Source: Oligoflexales bacterium
Lineage (GTDB): Bacteria > Bdellovibrionota_B > Oligoflexia > Oligoflexales > CAIYRB01
Length of the DNA stretch: 10,674 nt
Assembly (NCBI GenBank): GCA_041736175.1
Contig: JBGSUI010000045.1
Span: 1-10,674, forward strand
Reading direction: 5' to 3'
Shown: piece after piece, positions 118 to 10,655 of the stretch
How the letters are laid out: each line of letters begins with the position of its first letter
How positions within the stretch are numbered: position 1 is the first letter of the stretch
The notes under the pieces: generated by a model
What the model was told of the DNA's origin: nothing
Seen by the model: only the letters and a program-made list of their open reading frames with translations
The model's database searches: none
Program-made: the position numbers and the translations under genes

Positions 118-660
118 TTAGGGGTGCTGGTAGTTCACCAGGACGGTTTTGATCTTAGGAGTTTCGATGGTTTGTTTGAGAAGGCGTGCTTCGTATTTGC
201 CATTCAGACGTCGGTGCAGCGCCCAAAAAATCCTTTTGAGATCATTATTGTTTAAAATGAAAGCCGCGTCTTCGATGGCCTCGAGCCCGCGCAAAAACTC
301 AGGCTTTTGCATTTCCTTGTTGGCCTGCTGAGGGTCATTGTCGCCAAAAAATCCAAATTGACTGAATTCTTCATTAAACCAATTAAAAGAAATGTCGGGC
401 CCCGTTTTTCTTCGGTCAGATTTGAAATAGACCGCGACTGATGCGTTGTCGTCTTTTAGATTAGAGAGATTTAGACCCCAAAAATTATCCGTGGAAAGAT
501 TCATCTCGACTTCAACGTCGCCAACCTTGGCTTTGACACTCTTACCTCTATTTTTTACAACCAGCTCGTTTATGGCTATCCAATACTCATCCATCGCAGG
601 ATTGTCTGTTGCAGCGACGACGCTGCCGTCCTGAAGGGAGCGCGGACGGACGCAGGACAT
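118..660 (-). CDS. Hypothetical protein of 180 aa with no recognised domain
   Basis: 180-codon ORF from an ATG at 660 on the minus strand. An AGGAA Shine-Dalgarno lies about 9 nt upstream. The ORF is followed by hairpin terminator structures. The protein shows no transmembrane segment and no motif I can assign. Confidence 0.6.
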   Translation of the reverse strand: MSCVRPRSLQDGSVVAATDNPAMDEYWIAINELVVKNRGKSVKAKVGDVEVEMNLSTDNFWGLNLSNLKDDNASVAVYFKSDRRKTGPDISFNWFNEEFSQFGFFGDNDPQQANKEMQKPEFLRGLEAIEDAAFILNNNDLKRIFWALHRRLNGKYEARLLKQTIETPKIKTVLVNYQHP

Positions 661-960
661 ATCGAAGGTTCCTGAAACGAGATCTTTGATCGGTTTTGTG
701 GGAGCTTAAAGCAGTTCATTTTGAGTCCTTCGGTTGCATGTATTTATTGTAGGAAGTAAATCCTTGAGAAACCACAGGGCATGCCGTGAGCAGAGGTTAT
801 GCAATAGACAGGCCAACCATGGCGAACAATCGATGCCAATGGTTGTTGCTTGGATTTTCTATATTGATTTATGCGAGTAAGCCCAAGGTCTGGCGGACGG
901 AATCTCCTCAAAAGTCCGATGGTCAAAGCGTTTGCGAGTGTACAATCAATGTACTAATGT

Positions 961-1012
961 GGCCATTGGCCTTGAGTCTGTGTTGAGACAAGGTTAAGAA
1001 CCAAAGAACCTA
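961..1012. repeat. 52-bp repeat, copy 1 (ggccattggccttgagtctgtgttgagacaaggttaaga[a/t]ccaaagaaccta)
   Basis: Matches 3800-3851 at 51 of 52 positions in direct orientation. It contains the GGCCATTGGCC dyad and an imperfect CCTTG...CAAGG inverted repeat. It lies about 280 bp upstream of the SPFH gene. Confidence 0.9.
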
Positions 1013-1045
1013 CTTTTTCTTCCTCCCCACGCCAGGTACGGCCAC

Positions 1046-1112
1046 GTGGTCTCAAGGTCATCTGGAGTGTGGACAATCGATATTTAACCATCTCTTTGAT
1101 AAGTTTCCGAGG
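1046..1112. repeat. 67-bp repeat, copy 1 (gtggtc.caaggtc.tctggagtgtggacaatcgatatttaaccat.tctttgataagtttccg.gg)
   Basis: Matches 8308-8374 at 63 of 67 positions in direct orientation. It sits 33 bp downstream of 52-bp repeat copy 1. The hypothetical ORFs that cover the two copies are on different strands and frames, so conservation is at the nucleotide level and not protein-coding. Confidence 0.85.
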
Positions 1113-1280
1113 TGGGGAGCTTCGGCTATTGCCATCATAGCTCCTTAGGTTTACATGTAACAACCAATAATTGCTTTTTAATTTGCATCTCCTTGCTTTT
1201 GACGAGTCTTTTTCCTCAAAAGATGCTCTGTAAAACCCGACACCTTTATGTCTGCCAACCTTGGCAGAGCAGATTTCACC

Positions 1281-1286
1281 AGGAGG
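1281..1286 (+). promoter_or_regulatory. Shine-Dalgarno AGGAGG for the SPFH gene
   Basis: AGGAGG lies 7 nt upstream of the ATG at 1294. The TTG at 1261 used by the ORF track is probably not the real start. Confidence 0.6.
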
Positions 1287-1293
1287 ATTAAAA

Positions 1294-2343
1294 ATGTCTA
1301 TCGTTCAATCTCTAAAAAACCAACTCCGCTCCGTCATCGAGTGGGAGGGGTTTGACAGCAGCGCGGTACTTTGGCAATGGACCATCAACGGTGACGAAAT
1401 TAAAAACGCATCAAAACTTTTGGTAAAACCTGGTCAGGGCTGTTTTTTCCTCCACGAAGGAAAAGTTGAGGCTATCCTAACTGACTCTGGAACCTACACA
1501 CTTAAGACTGCAAATATTCCGTTTTGGACCACCGTATCAAAATTTATGCAGGCCTTTGAAAGCGAGCATAAGGTGGGAATCTACTTTTTTCGCAGCGGTC
1601 CCCTCGTCGATCAGAAATGGGGCACCACAAATCCCATCAAATACTTTGATGCCAAATACGAGCAATCTGTGATGCTTAAAGCCTTTGGAACCTATACCGT
1701 CCAAGTGTTGGAGCCAAAGTCTTTTTTAGAGTTTGTGGCGTCGGCACCGTCGTTTTCGGGGGAGCAGCTCAGGAGTGCTTTATTTTCGCGGCTGGAACAG
1801 TCTATCAAAGACAGCATTGCCGAGTGCCAGTTTGGCTTTGACGAGATTGATTCTAAACTTAACGAGATTAGCGCAAAAACCCGAGACCACCTAAATAACG
1901 ATGTGGCAAACTTAGGGTTTAAAATCACGGATTTCAGGATTAACGGTACGACCTTTGACGAACAGACCACAAAAAATATCCAAGAGATCTCTCGGGCCGC
2001 AGCCGAGGCCATGGCCGCCAAAAAACGAGGTCTCACCTACGCCCAGCAGGCACAGATCGATACGATGAAAATTGCGGCGGCAAACGAGGGGGGAGGGCTG
2101 GCCGCGACGGGAGCTCAGTTGGCTGCTGGTGTTGGGATGGGCCAAATGATGGCTGGAGCCATGGCTGCCAACCTGGCAGCATCCACACCACCCCAAGCGG
2201 TACAAACCCAGGTAAGCCAAAGTCCGCACGACGCAAACGAGCCGGTAAAGCGCCTTAAAAAACTCAAAGACTTGTTTGACGCCGGCTTGATCGATGCCCA
2301 GGAATTTGAGTCTAAGAAGAAGGAGATACTAGCAGATATTTAA
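1294..2343 (+). CDS. SPFH/Band-7 family protein (Band_7_1, YdjI-like) with a C-terminal SHOCT-type motif
   Basis: The N-terminus, MSIVQSLKNQLRSVIEWEGFDSSAVLWQWT, matches the characteristic start of YdjI/Band_7_1 SPFH proteins. A central coiled, Ala/Gly-rich linker follows. The C-terminal KRLKKLKDLFDAGLIDAQEFESKKKEILADI is a typical SHOCT bihelical motif. The start has a strong RBS. Confidence 0.85.
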   Translation: MSIVQSLKNQLRSVIEWEGFDSSAVLWQWTINGDEIKNASKLLVKPGQGCFFLHEGKVEAILTDSGTYTLKTANIPFWTTVSKFMQAFESEHKVGIYFFRSGPLVDQKWGTTNPIKYFDAKYEQSVMLKAFGTYTVQVLEPKSFLEFVASAPSFSGEQLRSALFSRLEQSIKDSIAECQFGFDEIDSKLNEISAKTRDHLNNDVANLGFKITDFRINGTTFDEQTTKNIQEISRAAAEAMAAKKRGLTYAQQAQIDTMKIAAANEGGGLAATGAQLAAGVGMGQMMAGAMAANLAASTPPQAVQTQVSQSPHDANEPVKRLKKLKDLFDAGLIDAQEFESKKKEILADI

Positions 2344-2382: not shown

Positions 2383-3525
2383 ATGGCTATGGGTATGCGT
2401 GTAAAAAAACAACTAATCTATGAATTCTGGGACTGTCCCCAGTGCGGTGCTCAAGGCATCCTAGGGTCAGCAGAATCCTGTCCCCATTGCTCAAAGCCTC
2501 GAAACCAAAGCATCAAATTTTATCGGAAAAGCGACCAAGAGATCTTGGTCGAGCAAGAAAAGCTCAGCAGACACAGTGGAGGAGCTGACTGGATTTGTGA
2601 ATACTGTGATGGACTCAACGCCGCGATGTTGACCCACTGTGGTTCGTGTACCGCCGAAAAATCTGCAAATGCCAAGACCGTTGTTGACCCAGGGCCTAAA
2701 GACATTCCCCCTCCTAAAGTCGAAGCATTATCTAAAGGTCCGCCCACTAAAAGCCGACGGCGGTTGATTCTTGGTCTGGTGGTGGCATCAATCGCTGCTC
2801 TCTTATACTGGTCTATGGCTGCGGAAAAAAACACCTATAGGGTGGACCAAGTCTCCTGGAGTCGCAAAATAATCGTGGAGCGTTACGTGCGGGAGTTCCG
2901 AGAATCATGGGAAGATGAACAGACCGGTGACGACATATCGCTTCTCACCAAGAAATCTAAGGTCAGGTCCTACAAGGATGTTCTCGACCACTATAAGACC
3001 GAGACCTATTCCGAAGAGGAATCCTATCAGTCAGGTAGTCGCGAAAAATGCTCTACCGAGTATAAATCCACGGGCAATGGTGCTGCAGAAAAAATCACTG
3101 CTTGCCACGACGAGCCGGTTTATGCAACAAGGCAGATCACAAAAACCAGAGAGGTTCCCGTCTATAGAAAAGAGCCAGTTTATGCAAACTGGGTTCGGTA
3201 CCAATCAAGCTTTTATAAAGACCATCAGGTCTTTGAAAGCTCCGGGACAAACAATGCTCCCCAATGGCCTAAAACTAAATTAGGAACGGGGGTCTCGCAA
3301 AGACCCGACCGGGAAGGTGCGCGGGACGGTCTTTATCGAGTGACGTTAAGGAGAATGTCTCCCAGTAAAAAAGCGCCTCCTTCCGTCACGATCACGACGA
3401 TAGAAAAGCGATTTGTCGATCACTATGAGATCGGCAAAGAGATCGCTGTGGACTATCAAAATGTGGGCGGTCTGCAGTGGCCCGAGGGCGACAAGGAGGA
3501 ATCAAGCTCTACTGACAAACCTTGA
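2383..3525 (+). CDS. Double zinc-ribbon single-pass membrane protein (YdjG-like partner of SPFH/Psp modules)
   Basis: Two CxxC...CxxC zinc-ribbon units (CPQC..CPHC and CEYC..CGSC) lie at the N-terminus. One hydrophobic transmembrane helix follows (RRRLILGLVVASIAALLYWSMAA). The C-terminal domain of about 230 aa has repeated EPVY/VPVY motifs. The gene begins 40 bp after the SPFH gene with no terminator between them. The start could be the ATG at 2383, 2389 or 2395; the RBS AGGAAGG at 2373-2379 favours 2389 or 2395. Confidence 0.8.
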   Translation: MAMGMRVKKQLIYEFWDCPQCGAQGILGSAESCPHCSKPRNQSIKFYRKSDQEILVEQEKLSRHSGGADWICEYCDGLNAAMLTHCGSCTAEKSANAKTVVDPGPKDIPPPKVEALSKGPPTKSRRRLILGLVVASIAALLYWSMAAEKNTYRVDQVSWSRKIIVERYVREFRESWEDEQTGDDISLLTKKSKVRSYKDVLDHYKTETYSEEESYQSGSREKCSTEYKSTGNGAAEKITACHDEPVYATRQITKTREVPVYRKEPVYANWVRYQSSFYKDHQVFESSGTNNAPQWPKTKLGTGVSQRPDREGARDGLYRVTLRRMSPSKKAPPSVTITTIEKRFVDHYEIGKEIAVDYQNVGGLQWPEGDKEESSSTDKP

Positions 3526-3799
3526 GGTTGCTCTTGGATTTTTGAACGATCCAAAAGGGCTGTGAGTTCTGGAACCTCAGGTGGAAGAGCCGGAGTAAAA
3601 TCTTGGGCTTTGAGGGCGGTACCTGCCAAGATGATTCCTAGAAAAACAAAGGGATTTTAGAGTGACCAAGGTCCATTGAGAGTATCATCATGATAATAAA
3701 GATTAAAATCGAGTAAGTAGGGGTTTGGATAAATCCTCTATGTCGGCCTCTGGACGGGGCGGGGTCAAGACACTTTTAGCACGTCTTTGTATCCGGTGC

Positions 3800-3851
3800 G
3801 GCCATTGGCCTTGAGTCTGTGTTGAGACAAGGTTAAGATCCAAAGAACCTA
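3800..3851. repeat. 52-bp repeat, copy 2
   Basis: Matches 961-1012 at 51 of 52 positions. It lies about 70 bp upstream of the GTG start of the oppD-like gene. Confidence 0.9.
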
Positions 3852-3922
3852 GAGGGGAATCCCTAACAAGAGACTATCTCAACCTTCGAGACATCCGGGC
3901 CTCAAGAAAGGCAAAGCCACCT

Positions 3923-4981
3923 GTGACTGACCCCCTGCTTAAAGTCGACCAATTGGTCACATCCTTTAAAGTCGAAGCCGGAGTGCTCCGGGCAGTCGAT
4001 AAAGTCAGCTTTAGTATCAACCGGGGTGAGACGGTCGGGCTTGTGGGCGAATCAGGCTGCGGTAAGAGTGTCACCTCCCTGTCTATTTTAAGACTGATCG
4101 CCTCACCTCCAGGACTGATTGAGTCGGGTAAGATCCTCTTTGATGGCCAGGATCTCGCCCAGCTCTCCGAAGAAGAGATGCGAAAGCTGCGGGGAAACCG
4201 CATCTCGATGATCTTTCAAGAGCCCATGACGAGTCTTAATCCGGTGTTTACCATCGGTGACCAGATCGGCGAGGTCTTTAGGATCCACCAAAAATCATCC
4301 CGCGCCGAGGCTCGTAAAAAAGCCATCGAGATGCTCCACTTGGTCAAAATCCCTGCTCCCGAGGCACGGGTTGATGAATACCCCCACCAACTCTCCGGCG
4401 GCATGAGGCAGCGGATTATGATCGCCATGGCTTTAGCCTGTCGCCCCCAGCTGTTGATTGCAGACGAGCCCACGACCGCCCTTGATGTGACGATCCAAGC
4501 ACAGATTCTCGACCTGATCGAAAGCCTGCAAAAAGAACTCAATATGGCGGTCCTCCTGATCACCCACGACCTGGGTGTGGTGGCTGAGGTTTGCGACAAG
4601 GTTGTGGTGATGTATGCAGGTAAGGTAGTCGAACAGGGGACGGTGCACCAACTCTTTACCAATCCCCAGCACCCCTACACCCAAGGGCTGCTTCGCTCTA
4701 TCCCTAAGCTCGGCCATAAGTCCGAGTATCTGCCGACGATCGAAGGAACAGTTCCCAGTTTAGGAAATCTACCTCAAGGCTGCCGCTTTCAAACCCGATG
4801 CTCCCAGGTTTTTGACCGGTGTCGGACCGTGGAGCCTCCTTTGGTCCCTGTCCCTACGGGGTCAGGACCAACCCGCGACCTCGATGATTTAGGTTTAGGC
4901 CATGCCAGTGCCTGTTACCTGGTCCAAGGCGCAAGTGGACCCCATATCGACGGGAGGCCTGGTCATGACTCCACTCCTTGA
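3923..4981 (+). CDS. oppD: Oligopeptide/dipeptide-type ABC transporter ATP-binding protein (OppD/DppD-like)
   Basis: Walker [12 protein letters not shown] signature LSGGMRQR and Walker [13 protein letters not shown] are present, as is the oligopeptide-ABC C-terminal region ([17 protein letters not shown]). The gene uses a GTG start with an AAAGG RBS. Its 3' end overlaps the next gene by 17 nt. Confidence 0.9.
4952..4957 (+). promoter_or_regulatory. Shine-Dalgarno GGGAGG for the oppF-like gene
   Basis: GGGAGG lies 7 nt upstream of the ATG at 4965. This supports the internal start over the ATG at 4902. Confidence 0.55.
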
Positions 4982-5951
4982 AGTCCGCAACCTCATAAAA
5001 TACTTTCCTATCAAAGGGGGAGTTTTTGGCAGAGTCGTTGCCAAAGTCCATGCGGTGGACGGTGTCAGTCTGTCTATGCTGCCAGGCCAAACCTTAGGTC
5101 TCGTGGGTGAGTCGGGCTGCGGCAAGTCCACCTTAGGCCGGGCGATCCTTCGGCTGCACGAACCCTCCTCTGGCCACATTCAATTTGATGGTTGCGATCT
5201 CCTTTCGCTGACGACCAGCGAACTCCGTGCAAAACGTCGGGATATGCAGATTATATTTCAAGACCCCTTTTCCTCCCTCAATCCGCGGATGACCGTGGGA
5301 TCTATCCTCGCGGAGCCCTTTTTGATCCATAGGCTATGTTCAAAAAAGGAAACCACCCAACGAGTTAAGGAGCTATTAGAGACAGTTGGACTGCCTCCCG
5401 AGGCGGATAGCCGCTATCCCCACGAGTTTTCCGGTGGCCAACGGCAGCGTATTGGGATCGCCCGGGCGATTGCCCTTAGACCTAAGCTGATCGTTGCGGA
5501 CGAACCCGTCAGTGCTCTCGATGTTTCGATCCAATCCCAGATCCTTAATCTGCTGGTAGATCTCCGTAAAAAACTCCAGCTCACCTATCTTTTTGTGGCC
5601 CATGATCTCGCGGTCATCGAACACATCAGCGATTTTGTCGCCGTGATGTATCTGGGAAAGATTGTCGAATACGCCTCAAGCGAACAGCTTTACTTGAAGC
5701 CTTCGCACCCCTATACCAGAGCCTTGATCAGTGCCATTCCCGTCCCTAAAGTCAGCCTTCCAGGGACTCCTAAAAGACAGCGGCAGATCCTGATCGGCGA
5801 TGTGCCTAGCCCAATTAATCCACCTTCGGGATGTTATTTTCATCCCCGGTGTCCCCTGGCGACCGACAAGTGTAAGCAAGAGGCTCCGGCCCAACGCAAT
5901 ATCAGCGGCGCGGGCAAACCGCCCCATTTGGTTGCTTGTCATTATGCATAA
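4965..5951 (+). CDS. oppF: Oligopeptide/dipeptide-type ABC transporter ATP-binding protein (OppF/DppF-like)
   Basis: The N-terminus [19 protein letters not shown] is typical of OppF/DppF. Walker [10 protein letters not shown], signature FSGGQRQR and Walker [13 protein letters not shown] are present, with a C-terminal [12 protein letters not shown] motif and a CxxxRC..C tail. It is translationally coupled to the neighbouring genes at both ends. Confidence 0.9.
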
Positions 5952-7035
5952 CGTCCACCCTAGGCCAGACAAAACCCTGATCTGTCTCACAGGAGGCGGC
6001 ACGGCGGGGCATGTCACGCCTCATTTTGCATGGACGCCTTTTTTTGACAAACAAGGCTGGGATTATATCTATATCGGATCTCAGGGTTTAGAAAAATCCC
6101 TTGTGGAAGCCCAAAAGATCCCTTTCTATACCATCGCTGCGGGTAAACTCCGCCGCTATGCCTCCTGGCAAAACTTTACGGATCTCTTTAAAGTGGTCGG
6201 GGGGTTTTTCCAGGCATTTCGAATTTTAGGCCAAACCCGACCCAGCCTTATCCTGAGCAAAGGGGGATTTGTGGCGGTGCCGGTTGCTGTGGCAGGCTGG
6301 TTGCGGAAGATCCCGGTGATCTCCCACGAATCAGATGTATCCCCAGGACTCGCCAATCGGATCATCGCCCGGTTTGCCCACAAGATCCTCTACGCTTTTC
6401 CCGAGACAGCCCAATATATCAGCGGCGATAAAGGGGTATATGTGGGCGCACCGGTACGGGCTGACCTGGCCCTTGGGGACAAAAACCGAGCTGTCGCCCT
6501 GTGTGGATTCCAAGATTTTGACCCTAGCCTGCCGACGCTTTTGGTGATGGGCGGAAGCCAAGGGGCCCAGCGTATCAACGATGCTCTTAAGATCATATTA
6601 CCAACTCTTACCCAGTCTATGCAGGTGATTCACCTGACGGGCAAAGGCAAGACGATAGGCTTTCAGCATCCTCGCTATAAAGCTTTTGAGTTTGTGTCCC
6701 AAGAGTTTAAAGACCTCCTCGCCCTGTCGACCCATGTGGTTAGCCGTGCGGGGTCTAACTCCATCTTCGAACTCTTAGAGCTCCATAAGCCGATGCTTTT
6801 GATCCCTCTTGAGCTTGGAAGCAGGGGCGACCAAATCCTCAACGCCAACTCCTTTGCCCGCCAAGGCTGGTGTTTGACCTTAAGGGACAAGGATCTATCG
6901 GAGACGTCGCTCCTCGCTGCTATTAAACAGCTGATCGACCAGGGTCCACAGCTGGTCCTCAAACACCAATCCCGGCCCACCAGTCATACCTGTGATAGGG
7001 TAGTGGACGAGATCAAATCCACTCTTAAGATCTAG
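5944..7035 (+). CDS. murG: MurG-type GT28 glycosyltransferase (UDP-GlcNAc:undecaprenyl-PP-MurNAc-pentapeptide GlcNAc transferase)
   Basis: The N-terminal G-loop [15 protein letters not shown], the HESD motif, GAPVR, GGSQGAQ and SRAGS all align with conserved MurG motifs (GGTGGHVFP, HEQN, GNPVR, GGSQGA, SRAGA). The start ATG at 5944 sits in the sequence ATGCATAA, which overlaps the oppF stop codon. The longer form starting at 5800 in the ORF track is an upstream extension. Confidence 0.8.
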
Positions 7036-7169
7036 CCAACTCAGTGGGGATCAGGCCTGCCCAACTTCTCTAAAAGTGGCACCTGAATCTTCGCTTGTAA
7101 AGCATCTGAGTAAGGACCTGTCAATAAATAACTTGGACACTTTCTAATTAAATAGTCTATAGTCCAAGA

Positions 7170-8156
7170 ATGCTATCAGAACAATCAAAAAACCTAGATC
7201 GAATCCCAGATGTCATCGCCCTACTTGAAGAGATTGTAGATCCTACGAGCCGCGGCGATCCAGAATCTCCGCTTCGCTGGACTTGCAAGAGTGTCCGAAA
7301 TATAACGGAGTCTTTGAACATTAAAGGATATGCAATCAGCCGACAAACTGTAGCAAATATTCTCCATGAACTAGACTATAGTTTGCAAACAAACAGAAAA
7401 ACATCTGAAGGTAAGAAGGATCACCCAGATCGAGACCAGCAATTTCGTTTCATCATTAGTAAGGCAAAAGCCTTCCTAAATAAGTCTCTGACGGTTATTT
7501 CCGTTGACCCAAAGAAGAAGGAACTGATCGGCAAATATAAAAACGCGGGCCATGAATGGGAAAAAAAGGCATGTCAGTCAAAGTGCTAAGTCATGATTTT
7601 CCTGATCCTGATAAACCAAAAGCAGTTTCTTATGGCGTATATGACATTGGGGGAAATCTTGGGTGGGTCAAGATCGGCATCTCGGCGGACACTACTGAAT
7701 TCGCTGTTGAGAGTATCAAACAATGATGGAATTTAATGGGTAGAAAACGATACACGATGGCTCGAGAAATATATATTTGCGCGGACAGCGGAGGTAGCAA
7801 CGGCTACCGAATTCACCTTTGGAAATATGAACTACAAAAGTTTTGTGATACTCAAAATATTACCATCACCGTCTCATTATCTTCCGGGTACAAGTAAATG
7901 GAACAAGATAGAGCAACGTCTGTTTTCATATATCACCATGAATTGGTGTGGGCGGCCACTCACGGATTACAGAACTGTCGTTGATCTAATTGCAGCAACT
8001 ACCACTAAGATGGAGTTGATCGTCAAGGCACGTCTCGATAATAAAAAGTACAAAAGAGGCATTAAGGTTTCTGCCAGCGAAATGGCAAAATTAAATATCT
8101 TTCGCAGTACATTTCACGGTGAATGGAATTACACCATTTCACCTCGAAGTGTCTAA
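7170..8156 (+). pseudogene. Decayed ISAzo13-family (Rhodopirellula-type DDE) transposase relic, 5'-truncated and frameshifted
   Basis: Three successive reading frames carry family-typical segments. The first is ESPLRWTCKS..RQTVANILHELDYSLQTNRKT..HPDRDQQFRFI (7170-7589). The second is SYGVYDIGGNLGWVKIGISADTTEFAVESIKQ*W (7571 to about 7877), with a TGA at 7724-7726 where the family has a conserved Trp. The third is CADSGGSNGYRIHLWKYELQ.../HYLPGTSKWNKIEQRLFS...FHGEWNY (to 8156). This gives at least two frameshifts and one nonsense codon, and the N-terminal 70-100 aa of the family are absent. Confidence 0.7.
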
Positions 8157-8307
8157 GTTATTTCTTGAAAGGTCCTTAGCTTTTGCTGTACTCGCCTTGC
8201 CGGACACAATGGATTCCGTCAAGATCAAGCCAGCTTTTCTTTTTTTACCTTTCCTGGGGATATGGGTTTATGATCGGTGGGTTTGGAAACCTTGTCGGAC
8301 TTTTGGG

Positions 8308-8374
8308 GTGGTCGCAAGGTCTTCTGGAGTGTGGACAATCGATATTTAACCATGTCTTTGATAAGTTTCCGGGG
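8308..8374. repeat. 67-bp repeat, copy 2
   Basis: Matches 1046-1112 at 63 of 67 positions. It lies about 150 bp after the 3' end of the ISAzo13 relic. Confidence 0.85.
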
Positions 8375-8818
8375 GATAGGTTTGTTCAAGGGACACTGAA
8401 TTGACCCTTTGGCAAATTTGTATTCGCCCCTAGTCGGTCCCCGAGAGCCTCAATAACAGCAAGAGAGGGGTAAAAGCCCACGTGTTTGGAATAACCAGCC
8501 ATCATGATTTTTTGGTCTCGCTTCCCGCCATGGACTAGGGCAAAAGATGGAATCTTGTAATTCATTTAAAACTTTCTGATTGAAGTTGGGTAAGGAGTTT
8601 GGAATTGAAAATCCTGCTGTGGCCTGTGAAACGCAACTTGAGAAGGGTGATTGCTTGATTAGGTCTCTAAGAAAAGAGTTGGATGGTTGATGCCTTTTTC
8701 CATTGGCCTTCTTAGGGAGGTCCTTAGGTTGGAATCACGAGTCGATCCGGCTGCCCAGAAACTGACCATCATTTGTCCACGAAACATTTCGACTTGTTAT
8801 AACTTACCGTGACATAGG

Positions 8819-9290: not shown

Positions 9291-10655
9291 CTACGGAACT
9301 ACGCAGCGCACCACAGTGGCGCTCTCAGAGCCGCTGAAGCTAGCCCCGGTTCCCGCCCACATCCAGTAATGATTAGAATAGTAAGTGCTGGCCGAAGACG
9401 TTCTGGTATTACTCATGCCCACAGACGGTACACCAGTGGTCGAGGATGACCAGCTAGGCGAGGCTGGGTCCGCAGGTTTGTTATCCACTGGATCGTTGGC
9501 AGTCGTCTCGTATAGGAGCGGCAGCCGCATTCCCTTATTGGCACAGGTTTGGATATTACCTTCATACCACGATGCACTATAGCTGGCACCACCGGCGGTT
9601 GTGTTCCAGAACCCTAAACGGTAGGCTCCTGCTGTGGTCTGATTGGTGTTGCCGTCATGGGCGGTGGCATCCAGACGCTGGCTTGGGTTTCCTTGATCGT
9701 AATATACACAACGCCCGGTCGCTACTCTATTGCCGTCATCGACATACACGTTTACAGGACAGACGCGACCACCAAGATTGGCCACGGTCCTATCGAGATT
9801 TGTGGCGCTAAAAGAGCGACCATTGGCGTTAAGCTTCAAATGCCAATTATCGGAACCATTTACCCGCAGCACGTTATTGCCGTCGGCCTGTACCCATATC
9901 CCCGAGGTAAGGACAAGAAGCTTGCCGCTTCCTGTATATGCCATGCCCGAATTCAAGGCAGCACTGGTCTGGTAGCAATCCACGCCGCAAAGCTCTGGTT
10001 TATCCCGGCTAGTGGTCCCTATCAACGATGTCTGGTACCAGGCAATACCATTGGAGACTAGCTGGACCAGAGCATTGGTTTGCAGAGTTATGGGCGCCTG
10101 AACCCCATCGATCTGGTCCGTGCCAGAGGGGAGGACTGTTGCCCAGAGCCCTGCACCTTTTACTGTGAGTAGATATCCCGCACCGGCACTTGCTGCAGTA
10201 GGGAGGGTCAGGGTGGTCCGGTTCCCTGTCACGATAAAATATTTGCCGCTGTCTCCAGCTGTCAGAGTATAGTCAGAGCTTTTCGTAGAAACACCCACAC
10301 TACCTCCACTAGCAGCCCAAGATAAGGATCCCGATCCATCCGTCACTAGTGCCTGGCCACTTGTCCCATCTGCGGCAGGGAGGGTCCAGATTTTATTGGT
10401 GGTGACAGAAGCAGGAGCCTTAAAACCTACATAGTGGCTATCGTCGTTATCCCCAAATCTAAGATCCGTAGCAGCTGTACCAGTTCCTGCCACCCGGATA
10501 TTGCCAGTGCTTGAGAGCTGGCCAGATGTGGCCACCACAGTGGAGCCCCCGATGGTCCCCGAGGTGATGGCAGAGCCAGAGACTTTGCCCGCAGTGCTAA
10601 TGGTGTCCAGTTTAGTATCAGCGATGGCGGCTGAGGCGTTGATATCCGTGTCCAT
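9291..10655 (-). CDS. Fibre/adhesin-like protein: phage-tail-fibre-like Gly/Thr/Ser-rich N-terminal region plus a DUF1566/Lcl-like lectin-type C-terminal domain. The 5' end may lie beyond the window.
   Basis: 454-aa ORF. The N-terminus ADTKLDTISTAGKVSGSAITSGTIGGSTVVATSG...LRFGDNDDSHYVGFKAPASVTTNKIWTLPAADGTSGQALVTDGSGSLSWA is a motif seen in tail-fibre or Bdellovibrio-type surface fibre proteins. The C-terminus CANKGMRLP...SWSSSTTG...VVRCVVP fits the DUF1566 pattern (C..G.WRLP..EL, YWSST, vRCVR). The reading frame remains open upstream of the ATG at 10655 all the way to the window edge, so the true start may be further 5'. Confidence 0.8.
   Translation of the reverse strand: MDTDINASAAIADTKLDTISTAGKVSGSAITSGTIGGSTVVATSGQLSSTGNIRVAGTGTAATDLRFGDNDDSHYVGFKAPASVTTNKIWTLPAADGTSGQALVTDGSGSLSWAASGGSVGVSTKSSDYTLTAGDSGKYFIVTGNRTTLTLPTAASAGAGYLLTVKGAGLWATVLPSGTDQIDGVQAPITLQTNALVQLVSNGIAWYQTSLIGTTSRDKPELCGVDCYQTSAALNSGMAYTGSGKLLVLTSGIWVQADGNNVLRVNGSDNWHLKLNANGRSFSATNLDRTVANLGGRVCPVNVYVDDGNRVATGRCVYYDQGNPSQRLDATAHDGNTNQTTAGAYRLGFWNTTAGGASYSASWYEGNIQTCANKGMRLPLLYETTANDPVDNKPADPASPSWSSSTTGVPSVGMSNTRTSSASTYYSNHYWMWAGTGASFSGSESATVVRCVVP

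What the first reader, a model, noticed from the sequence alone, without database searches (positions are those of the whole stretch)
3923..7035. Orphan oppD/oppF ATPase pair translationally coupled to murG, outside any dcw cluster
The three ORFs overlap: oppD and oppF share 17 nt, and the oppF stop codon lies inside the murG start within ATGCATAA. This implies tight co-translation. No permease (OppB/C) or substrate-binding gene is present in the window. On the upstream side the neighbour is the unrelated SPFH/zinc-ribbon module and then a repeat. On the downstream side there is only IS debris. murG is normally embedded in the cell-division/cell-wall (dcw) cluster between ftsW/murD and murC. 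A murG fused in an operon with peptide-importer ATPases is unusual. It might reflect coupling between murein-peptide uptake (Opp/MppA-type recycling) and lipid II synthesis. Alternatively this is a second, accessory MurG-like GT28 paralogue with a different acceptor.
Basis: partly seen in the sequence, partly recalled or inferred. Interest (0 to 1): 0.55.

Follow-up and report, generated by a model that had tools for sequence, protein, structure and literature searches.

The report
Lineage-conserved oppD-oppF-murG operon
The overlapping oppD, oppF and murG genes are real, but the same three-gene arrangement recurs in many related Oligoflexia-type bacteria, so it is an ordinary cell-wall enzyme gene that sits in an unusual, inherited operon position.

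Summary
Three intact genes overlap: oppD-like 3923-4981, oppF-like 4965-5951 (17-nt overlap) and murG 5944-7035 (ATGCATAA, 8-nt overlap). No permease or binding-protein gene lies anywhere on this 10.7-kb contig.

The trio is not a one-off. The same oppD-oppF-murG order occurs in 7 further independent loci from Oligoflexia/Bdellovibrionota-type bacteria. At least 28 of the 120 closest MurG homologues sit on the same contig as a close OppF homologue. In 6 of 8 loci the murG ATG lies inside the last oppF codons.

This MurG belongs to the NF009102/PRK12446 subfamily. It scores above that family's curated cut-off and keeps the MurG catalytic motifs. In every context I examined (15 Oligoflexia-type loci, 3 Firmicutes loci) this subfamily lies outside a dcw cluster.

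The ATPases are standard, intact Opp/Dpp-type subunits. Their membrane partners are probably encoded elsewhere.

Two questions could not be answered with these tools: whether these genomes also carry a dcw-encoded murG, and where oppB/oppC are. Nothing shows functional coupling between peptide uptake and lipid II synthesis. Interest is low to moderate.

The parts
3526..3922 (+). Non-coding leader upstream of oppD. It contains a 55-nt repeat copy at 3797-3851.
   Evidence: There is no credible ORF here. Segment 3797-3851 is 96% identical to 958-1012. No sigma-70-like site was found on the + strand and there is no Rfam match.
3923..4981 (+). oppD-like gene: the D-type ATPase subunit of an Opp/Dpp (peptide/opine/nickel-type) ABC importer, 352 aa.
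   Evidence: Pfam gives ABC_tran 2.4e-32 and oligo_HPY 5e-22. The best NCBIfam matches are DppD/OppD models, below their equivalog cut-offs. It is 73-74% identical to the OppD of L001, L004 and L094. Walker A, signature, Walker B and H-loop motifs and the C-terminal Cys motif are intact in the alignment. The protein has a 13-aa insertion and a C-terminal tail that relatives lack.
4965..5951 (+). oppF-like gene: the F-type ATPase subunit, 328 aa.
   Evidence: Pfam gives ABC_tran 2.6e-33 and oligo_HPY 4.5e-17. NCBIfam gives PRK11308 404.4 bits (cut-off 408) and OppF 391.8 bits (cut-off 540). The best solved-structure matches are M. tuberculosis Rv1281c (8j5q) and E. coli OppF (8z21). It is 66-80% identical to more than 100 relatives. 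The N-terminus MTPLLEVRN matches relatives.
4952..4981 (+). oppD/oppF junction: GGGAGG at 4952-4957, oppF ATG at 4965, and a 17-nt overlap with the oppD 3' end.
   Evidence: Read directly from the sequence. This junction varies among relatives, from a 4-nt overlap to a 147-nt gap.
5944..5951 (+). oppF/murG junction ATGCATAA. The murG ATG is built from the oppF Tyr-Ala codons and overlaps the oppF TAA.
   Evidence: Read from the sequence. The same ATG-inside-oppF design is found in L004, L087, L090 and L093 (8 nt) and in L094 (11 nt). It is absent in L001 and L088, where an AAGGA/AAGGG motif precedes a separate ATG.
5944..7035 (+). murG: lipid II synthase (UDP-GlcNAc:lipid I GlcNAc transferase), GT28, NF009102/PRK12446 subfamily, 363 aa.
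   Evidence: Pfam gives PF03033 1.1e-34 and PF04101 1.1e-27. NF009102 scores 360.1 bits against a cut-off of 339; TIGR01133 scores 231.6 against 250.25. The protein aligns over its full length to P. aeruginosa and E. coli MurG structures with the key residues kept. It shares all 81 columns that are invariant across 28 subfamily members.
7111..8178 (+). Context: a degenerate ISAzo13-family insertion sequence directly downstream of murG.
   Evidence: The inverted repeats 7111-7142 and 8178-8147 are 91% identical over 32 nt. The DDE_Tnp_ISAZ013 domain is complete but split over four ORFs. GC is 0.415 against 0.53-0.55 for the trio.
8308..8374 (.). Context: a 67-nt repeat copy. Together with 3797-3851 it brackets the trio and the IS.
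   Evidence: It is 94% identical to 1046-1112. At 958-1112 the two repeat segments lie only 33 nt apart.

Best explanation
This is the murG gene (lipid II synthase) of an Oligoflexia-like member of the Bdellovibrionota. It belongs to the Firmicutes-like MurG subfamily NF009102/PRK12446.

In this bacterial class murG is not part of the dcw cluster. It is the last gene of a conserved envelope-biogenesis gene string: uppS, cdsA, rseP, tsaB, pgsA, (asd), truA, a TPR protein, a lipoprotein-like protein, an MshEN-like protein, then murG. In a large part of the class an oppD-oppF ATPase pair sits directly in front of murG, and that arrangement has been inherited.

The murG ATG is embedded in the last codons of oppF and has no Shine-Dalgarno sequence of its own. 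MurG is therefore most likely translated by ribosomes that terminate at the oppF stop and restart (inferred). That would tie MurG output to oppF translation.

OppD and OppF are catalytically intact Opp/Dpp-type ATPase subunits. They most likely power one or more peptide-type permeases encoded elsewhere in the genome (inferred). The adjacency to murG is best read as a stable operon position, not as a shared pathway.

On this contig the trio has been separated from its ancestral neighbours. It now lies beside a decayed IS and between short repeats.
For: The conserved trio:
- oppD-oppF-murG occurs in L001, L004/L005, L087, L088, L090, L093 and L094.
- At least 28 of the 120 top MurG hits share an exact contig length with a top-120 OppF hit. 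Four of these were checked directly.
- In a neighbour-joining tree the linked MurGs are spread over the whole Oligoflexia-type clade, including the basal window clade.

The same neighbourhood occurs without the ATPase pair in Pseudobacteriovorax (L006), L089 and L174.

The overlap junction is kept in 6 of 8 loci. An SD-like motif appears only where the genes do not overlap.

For the MurG subfamily:
- The window protein and relatives pass the NF009102 cut-off, and some relatives also pass the TIGR01133 cut-off.
- NCBI names these relatives MurG.
- The nearest relatives outside the clade are Firmicutes MurGs at 44-50% identity. Those also lie outside dcw.

For the ATPase pair:
- No permease or binding-protein gene lies within about 8-10 kb of the pair in L004, L087, L088 or L090.
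- A 66%-identical oppDF pair in L091 is likewise alone, without murG.

The codon usage of the three genes is mutually similar, and their GC3 is only modestly above that of their neighbours.
Against: - I could not inspect any complete genome of this lineage. A second, dcw-encoded murG is therefore not excluded, and the partner permeases have not been located.
- The loci were found through this MurG or through OppF. Genomes that lack the gene would not have been sampled.
- The trio stayed together through rearrangement of both flanks (window and L001). The overlap has persisted across lineages whose MurGs are only about 55-60% identical. Both facts could reflect selection for co-expression beyond mere hitch-hiking.
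- Co-transcription and translational coupling are inferred from sequence only.
Confidence: 0.6

Rival explanations
1. This is an accessory MurG paralogue. The genome also has a canonical dcw-encoded murG, and this NF009102-type copy is a second lipid II synthase used under particular conditions. Comparable cases are MglA in Kitasatospora and the non-dcw second murG copy implied by the 'murG1' label in Firmicutes.
For: - The subfamily's nearest relatives are Firmicutes MurGs. In Bacillaceae, Brevibacillus and Clostridium loci they sit outside dcw.
- A Firmicutes survey labels the dcw copy 'murG1', which implies a second type exists (PMC8136486).
- In actinomycetes, MurG-like proteins with both GT28 domains coexist with dcw MurG and can replace it (PMC8092295).
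- The window protein misses the TIGR01133 cut-off (231.6 against 250.25).
Against: - The gene occupies a fixed position at the end of a housekeeping envelope operon across deeply diverged lineages. MglA-type genes are patchy by comparison, present in 38% of strains.
- The protein passes a curated MurG equivalog cut-off, and some relatives pass both cut-offs.
- From memory only, the sole MurG of S. aureus is of this type and is also outside dcw. My recalled sequence scores 425.8 bits on NF009102 and is 42% identical to the window protein. It is not an exact database match.
Confidence: 0.25
2. There is true functional coupling. The OppDF pair energises uptake of murein peptides or other wall precursors (an MppA/Opp-type recycling route), or acts directly on the lipid II pathway. 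Tight translational coupling would then keep MurG and the ATPases in fixed proportion.
For: - The trio stays together when both flanks change (window, and L001).
- The overlap junction is conserved in 6 of 8 loci.
- OppD and OppF are more conserved (66-80%) than MurG (50-67%) across the same contigs.
- No permease lies nearby in any locus.
- From established knowledge, E. coli OppBCDF with MppA imports murein tripeptide.
Against: - Sister lineages keep murG at the same position with no ATPase pair.
- A close oppDF pair occurs alone next to unrelated genes (L091).
- The ATPases show no feature that separates them from ordinary Opp/Dpp ATPases. ABC ATPases are generally more conserved than glycosyltransferases.
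- No paper linking oppDF and murG as an operon was found.
Confidence: 0.08
3. The arrangement is an artefact, or a recently acquired mobile island. It would have been produced by mis-assembly at short repeats or by IS-mediated capture, with no biological continuity between the three genes.
For: - The contig is a short metagenome-type contig.
- The trio plus a decayed IS lies between two repeat halves that are contiguous elsewhere on the contig.
- The trio's GC is 3-6 points above its neighbours.
Against: - The same three genes in the same order, with the same junction, occur in independent assemblies from different samples.
- The repeats are only 55-67 nt long, and they flank the trio without interrupting it.
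- GC3 and codon usage differ only modestly from the neighbours.
Confidence: 0.03

Closest known systems
MurG of the NF009102 / PRK12446 subfamily (Firmicutes-type MurG; from memory this includes the single MurG of Staphylococcus aureus)
   Same: - Two GT28 domains and a score above the curated cut-off (360.1 against 339).
- Shared motifs: GGGTAGH, GKLRRY, SKGGFVxVP, HESDxxPGLAN, GGSQGA and SRGDQxxNA.
- Encoded outside the dcw cluster.
   Different: - The host is a diderm Oligoflexia/Bdellovibrionota-type bacterium, not a Firmicute.
- Identity to Firmicutes members is only 44-50%.
- The gene is preceded by oppDF, with an overlapping stop and start.
Canonical dcw-encoded MurG (E. coli 1F0K/1NLM, P. 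aeruginosa 3S2U)
   Same: Same fold family and a full-length alignment. Conserved features are the G-loop with His (E. coli H19), GGSQGA, the Glu of the UDP-binding helix (E269) and the Q..N motif.
   Different: - The match to the solved Proteobacteria MurG structures is distant (E 5.6e-30 to 1.7e-22).
- HEQN is replaced by HESD.
- The protein falls below the TIGR01133 cut-off.
- The gene is not flanked by ftsW or murC.
MglA, the alternative lipid II synthase of Kitasatospora viridifaciens (PMC8092295)
   Same: A GT28 protein with both domains, encoded away from the dcw cluster, that can make lipid II.
   Different: MglA coexists with a dcw murG and is patchily distributed. It clusters apart from true MurGs. 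Here the gene is syntenic across the class and passes a MurG equivalog model. Whether it coexists with a dcw copy is untested.
Opp/Dpp ABC importer ATPases (E. coli OppD/OppF 8Z21, DppD/DppF 8Z1V; M. tuberculosis OppD Rv1281c 8J5Q)
   Same: ABC_tran plus the oligo_HPY C-terminal domain with a four-Cys motif. They form a D-type/F-type pair and all ATPase motifs are intact.
   Different: - The genes are not adjacent to oppA/B/C in the window or in any relative examined.
- Scores are below the equivalog cut-offs, so the substrate cannot be named.
- oppF is fused translationally to murG.
Shared or stand-alone ABC ATPases that serve permeases encoded elsewhere (for example MsiK of Streptomyces; from general knowledge)
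   Same: ATPase genes that are separated from the membrane components they presumably energise.
   Different: MsiK belongs to the sugar (CUT1) class and is a single gene. No partner permease has been identified here.

Membership tests
MurG (GT28 lipid II synthase) | N-terminal GT28 domain (PF03033) plus C-terminal GT28 domain (PF04101) | tested here: met
   PF03033 scores 1.1e-34 over residues 13-149. PF04101 scores 1.1e-27 over residues 198-336.
MurG (GT28 lipid II synthase) | Score above a curated MurG equivalog cut-off | tested here: met
   NF009102 scores 360.1 bits against a cut-off of 339. The second model, TIGR01133, is missed (231.6 against 250.25). Relatives P0105 and P0011 pass both models.
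MurG (GT28 lipid II synthase) | Catalytic and substrate-binding motifs: G-loop with His (E. coli H19), GGSQGA, Glu269, Q..N | tested here: met
   The alignment to 1f0k and 3s2u shows GGTAGH (H23), GGSQGA, IFE (E276) and DQILNA. These positions are invariant in 28 subfamily members. The roles of the residues are taken from knowledge of the E. coli structure.
MurG (GT28 lipid II synthase) | Transfers GlcNAc to lipid I; complements loss of murG | not testable with these tools
   This needs an enzyme assay or a complementation experiment.
Canonical dcw-cluster murG | Located between ftsW/murD and murC in the dcw cluster | tested here: not met
   No dcw gene occurs in the window. No dcw-cluster gene is called within about 10 kb of this murG type in the ten Oligoflexia-type loci that have gene calls.
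Accessory MurG-like paralogue (MglA / 'MurG2' type) | Coexists with a canonical murG in the same genome | not testable with these tools
   Only about 10 kb around each hit could be read.
Opp/Dpp (peptide/opine/nickel) ABC importer, ATPase subunits | ABC_tran domain with intact Walker A, Q-loop, signature, Walker B and H-loop | tested here: met
   OppD carries [28 protein letters not shown] and ITHDL. OppF carries [28 protein letters not shown] and VAHDL.
Opp/Dpp (peptide/opine/nickel) ABC importer, ATPase subunits | C-terminal oligo_HPY domain (PF08352) | tested here: met
   The scores are 5e-22 for OppD and 4.5e-17 for OppF. Both have the C..C..C...C motif.
Opp/Dpp (peptide/opine/nickel) ABC importer, ATPase subunits | Equivalog-level assignment to a named system (OppD/F, DppD/F, GsiA, NikD/E and so on) | tested here: not met
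   The best scores are 398.3 against 541 for DppD, 391.8 against 540 for OppF and 404.4 against 408 for the PRK11308 subfamily. The substrate therefore stays unassigned.
Opp/Dpp (peptide/opine/nickel) ABC importer, ATPase subunits | Encoded in one operon with OppB/OppC permeases and an OppA binding protein | tested here: not met
   None are present in the window (whole contig), nor within about 8-10 kb in L004, L087, L088, L090 or L091. Their presence elsewhere in the genome was not testable.

The most novel reading that the evidence does not exclude
The stand-alone OppDF pair of Oligoflexia may be dedicated to the cell-wall precursor economy. For example, it could energise uptake of murein peptides from prey or from the cell's own wall turnover, or some other lipid-II-linked transport step. 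Its conserved stop/start overlap with murG would then be a device that fixes the ratio of recycling capacity to lipid II synthesis.
Probability: 0.07. Interest if true: 0.6.

Novelty: new member of a known kind. Interest (0 to 1): 0.27.

Why it matters
Mostly it serves as a correction. A murG outside the dcw cluster, behind peptide-transporter ATPase genes, looks odd from an E. coli viewpoint. Here it is the inherited, normal state for a whole bacterial class and for this MurG subfamily.

It adds a small piece to the picture of how the dcw cluster has been eroded in some lineages. The Firmicutes-like MurG type in a diderm phylum hints at an old gene replacement.

If the ATPase-murG coupling were functional, it would give a handle on how wall-peptide recycling is balanced against lipid II synthesis. 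Nothing here shows that it is functional.

Tried and rejected
- Looking for a second, dcw-type murG and for oppB/oppC in the same genomes. This was not possible. Contig look-ups show only about 10 kb around a known protein.
- Literature searches for an oppDF-murG operon or for Oligoflexia/Bdellovibrio murG placement. Nothing relevant was found. The dcw-evolution paper I wanted was not in the library.
- Rfam scan of the window: no match.
- Promoter and terminator scan of 3400-7400: counts were no higher than in shuffled sequence, and there was no + strand promoter before oppD.
- Search of all related loci for the window's repeats, leader and flanking proteins: no match. The flanks are therefore specific to this contig.
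- PADLOC: only generic ABC-ATPase similarities, with no defence system.
- Horizontal-transfer island idea: GC3 and codon usage of the trio differ only modestly from the neighbours, so I rejected it as a main explanation.
- Exact database look-up of my recalled S. aureus MurG sequence failed. That comparison therefore rests on memory, plus its strong NF009102 score.
- The DUF1801 assignment for 8225-8565(-) is only weakly supported (E 0.026).
Full report
**1.

The ORF list and the sequence give three genes on the + strand:
- oppD-like, from GTG 3923 to 4981;
- oppF-like, from ATG 4965 to 5951;
- murG, from ATG 5944 to 7035.

oppD and oppF overlap by 17 nt. A GGGAGG motif lies 7 nt before the oppF ATG. 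The oppF stop TAA (5949-5951) lies inside ATGCATAA.

The mechanical ORF list extends oppF and murG to upstream ATGs at 4902 and 5800. The N-termini of relatives (MTPLLEV..., and M...[12 protein letters not shown]) support 4965 and 5944.

Pfam assigns ABC_tran plus oligo_HPY to both ATPases, and both GT28 domains to the third protein. Nothing in the window matches a permease or a binding protein. The window is the entire contig, because the contig length recorded for its MurG equals the window length. 'Just outside the window' therefore cannot be examined for this organism.

**2. The arrangement is inherited**

The closest MurG homologues (50-67% identity) come from MAGs labelled Oligoflexia, Oligoflexales, Deltaproteobacteria or Proteobacteria, and from Pseudobacteriovorax. 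Gene neighbourhoods show oppD-oppF-murG in L001, L004/L005, L087, L088 and L090 and in L093 and L094. That is seven loci besides the window.

Four of these were confirmed directly.

Most of these loci share an upstream string: (uppS, cdsA), rseP, tsaB, pgsA, asd, a hypothetical gene, truA, a TPR protein, a ~225-aa protein with a lipoprotein-like N-terminus, and a ~165-aa MshEN-like protein. Then come [oppD-oppF] and murG.

Other lineages have the same string with murG directly after the MshEN-like gene and no ATPases: Pseudobacteriovorax L006, L089 and L174. L007, L008, L108 and L173 also lack the ATPase pair.

In a neighbour-joining tree the linked MurGs are scattered through the whole clade, including the basal branch that holds the window protein. 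The linkage is therefore old, and it has been lost or was never gained in some sub-clades.

**3. The junction**

In the window, L004, L087, L090 and L093 the murG ATG is formed by the Tyr/Asn-Ala codons at the very end of oppF (...C-H-Y-A-stop), which gives an 8-nt overlap. In L094 the overlap is 11 nt.

No Shine-Dalgarno-like motif precedes these ATGs. In L001 and L088 the Tyr codon is different and the genes do not overlap. There, an AAGGA/AAGGG motif precedes a separate ATG.

This pattern is what is expected if MurG translation normally depends on ribosomes that finish oppF. That is an inference and has not been shown.

The oppD/oppF junction is variable among relatives. The window's OppD has its own 13-aa insertion and a C-terminal tail.

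**4. What the MurG is**

It scores 360.1 bits on NCBIfam NF009102 (PRK12446, a MurG equivalog, cut-off 339). It scores 231.6 on TIGR01133 (cut-off 250.25). Relatives give the same picture, and some pass both models.

It aligns over its full length with P. aeruginosa and E. coli MurG structures. The G-loop His, GGSQGA, the helix Glu and the Q..N motif are kept. It shares all 81 columns that are invariant across 28 members.

The nearest relatives outside the Oligoflexia-type clade are Firmicutes MurGs at 44-50% identity. In three Firmicutes loci checked, the neighbours are LytR-CpsA-Psr, GtrA, RecJ, a nuclease and similar genes, not dcw genes. A Firmicutes survey calls the dcw copy 'murG1' (PMC8136486).

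From memory, the single MurG of S. aureus is of this type and lies outside dcw. The sequence I recalled is 42% identical to the window protein and scores 425.8 bits on NF009102. It is not an exact database match, so this point is a lead only.

'A different acceptor' has no support.

**5. What the ATPases are**

Both are ordinary, intact Opp/Dpp-type subunits, one D-type and one F-type. They carry all ATPase motifs and the Cys-rich oligo_HPY domain. The best structural relatives are M. tuberculosis Rv1281c and E. coli OppF/DppF. Scores are below every equivalog cut-off, so the substrate cannot be named.

No permease or binding-protein gene lies within 8-10 kb in any relative. A 66%-identical oppDF pair in L091 stands alone among unrelated genes, with no murG. 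Single-chain OppD-OppF fusions also occur.

The pair thus behaves as a self-contained two-gene unit in this phylum. The simplest reading is that it serves permeases encoded elsewhere. This is inferred and could not be tested.

**6. This contig's own history**

Here the trio is not in the ancestral neighbourhood. Upstream are an SPFH/SHOCT protein and a Cys-pair protein, followed by a 397-nt leader. Downstream is a frameshifted ISAzo13-family element with 32-nt inverted repeats.

A 55-nt segment 72 nt before oppD (3797-3851) and a 67-nt segment after the IS (8308-8374) are 96% and 94% identical to two segments that lie only 33 nt apart at 958-1112. The trio and the IS therefore sit between the two halves of a sequence that is contiguous elsewhere on the contig. 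This suggests rearrangement. None of these sequences occurs in the related loci.

GC3 and codon usage of the trio differ only modestly from the neighbours. The closest relative, L001, also has rearranged flanks, with a Kef-type antiporter upstream and the TPR gene downstream. The three genes stay together when their surroundings change.

**7. Verdict**

- The best explanation (confidence about 0.6) is a bona fide, probably housekeeping MurG of the NF009102 type. It sits in a lineage-typical operon behind a stand-alone oppDF pair, is translationally coupled to oppF, and has no demonstrated pathway link to it.
- The main rival (about 0.25) is that it is a second MurG alongside a dcw copy.
- True functional coupling to peptide uptake is possible but unsupported (about 0.08).
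- An assembly or mobile-island artefact is unlikely (about 0.03).

No paper describing this operon was found. The parts are known kinds, so I rate it a new member of a known kind with low-to-moderate interest.

The decisive test is a census of GT28 genes, dcw clusters and Opp permeases in complete genomes of the lineage. I could not run it.

Noticed in passing
window 958-1112, 3797-3851, 8308-8374: Two short segments lie 33 nt apart at 958-1112. They recur separately, one 72 nt upstream of oppD (96% identity) and one just past the IS (94%). The oppDF-murG-IS block (3852-8307) therefore sits between the two halves. They are absent from all related loci. This could be a rearrangement scar or a local intergenic repeat.
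   Followed up: partly
window 7111-8178: An ISAzo13-family insertion sequence with 32-nt imperfect inverted repeats. Its transposase DDE domain is complete but broken into four reading frames. GC is 0.415, well below the rest of the contig.
   Followed up: partly
window 1261-2343 and 2383-3525: An SPFH (Band_7_1) protein with a SHOCT tail is followed by a 380-aa protein with four Cys pairs and one hydrophobic segment that matches no family in Pfam, NCBIfam or PADLOC. From memory, the pairing resembles B. subtilis YdjI/YdjG. The likely SPFH start is the ATG at 1294, behind AGGAGG.
   Followed up: no
window 9291-10655 (-) and 118-660 (-): Two sizeable ORFs, one of 454 aa (Gly/Ser/Thr-rich) and one of 180 aa, have no match in Pfam, NCBIfam or PADLOC.
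   Followed up: no
window 8225-8565 (-): A small gene is split by a frameshift near 8389. When the halves are joined it gives only a weak DUF1801 match (E 0.026). Its 3' part is one of the repeated segments.
   Followed up: partly
L004 5076-8039; L006, L087, L088, L089, L090, L174 at equivalent positions: In relatives, murG (with or without oppDF) always follows three genes: a ~590-aa TPR protein, a ~225-aa protein with a lipoprotein-like signal (MRWFAIAWLFQGC) and a ~165-aa MshEN-like protein. This conserved trio of unknown role is linked to murG across the class.
   Followed up: partly
L092 7240-8919 (P0122) and P0137, P0160, P0196, P0226: Close relatives of OppF exist as 541-566-aa single chains with two ABC_tran and two oligo_HPY domains. 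These are OppD-OppF fusions, and the one examined is also not next to a permease.
   Followed up: no
L091 8985-10999: A 66%-identical oppD-oppF pair stands alone between a 2OG-Fe(II) oxygenase gene and a glyoxalase gene. It has no permease and no murG nearby, which shows that the stand-alone state of this ATPase pair is wider than the murG linkage.
   Followed up: partly
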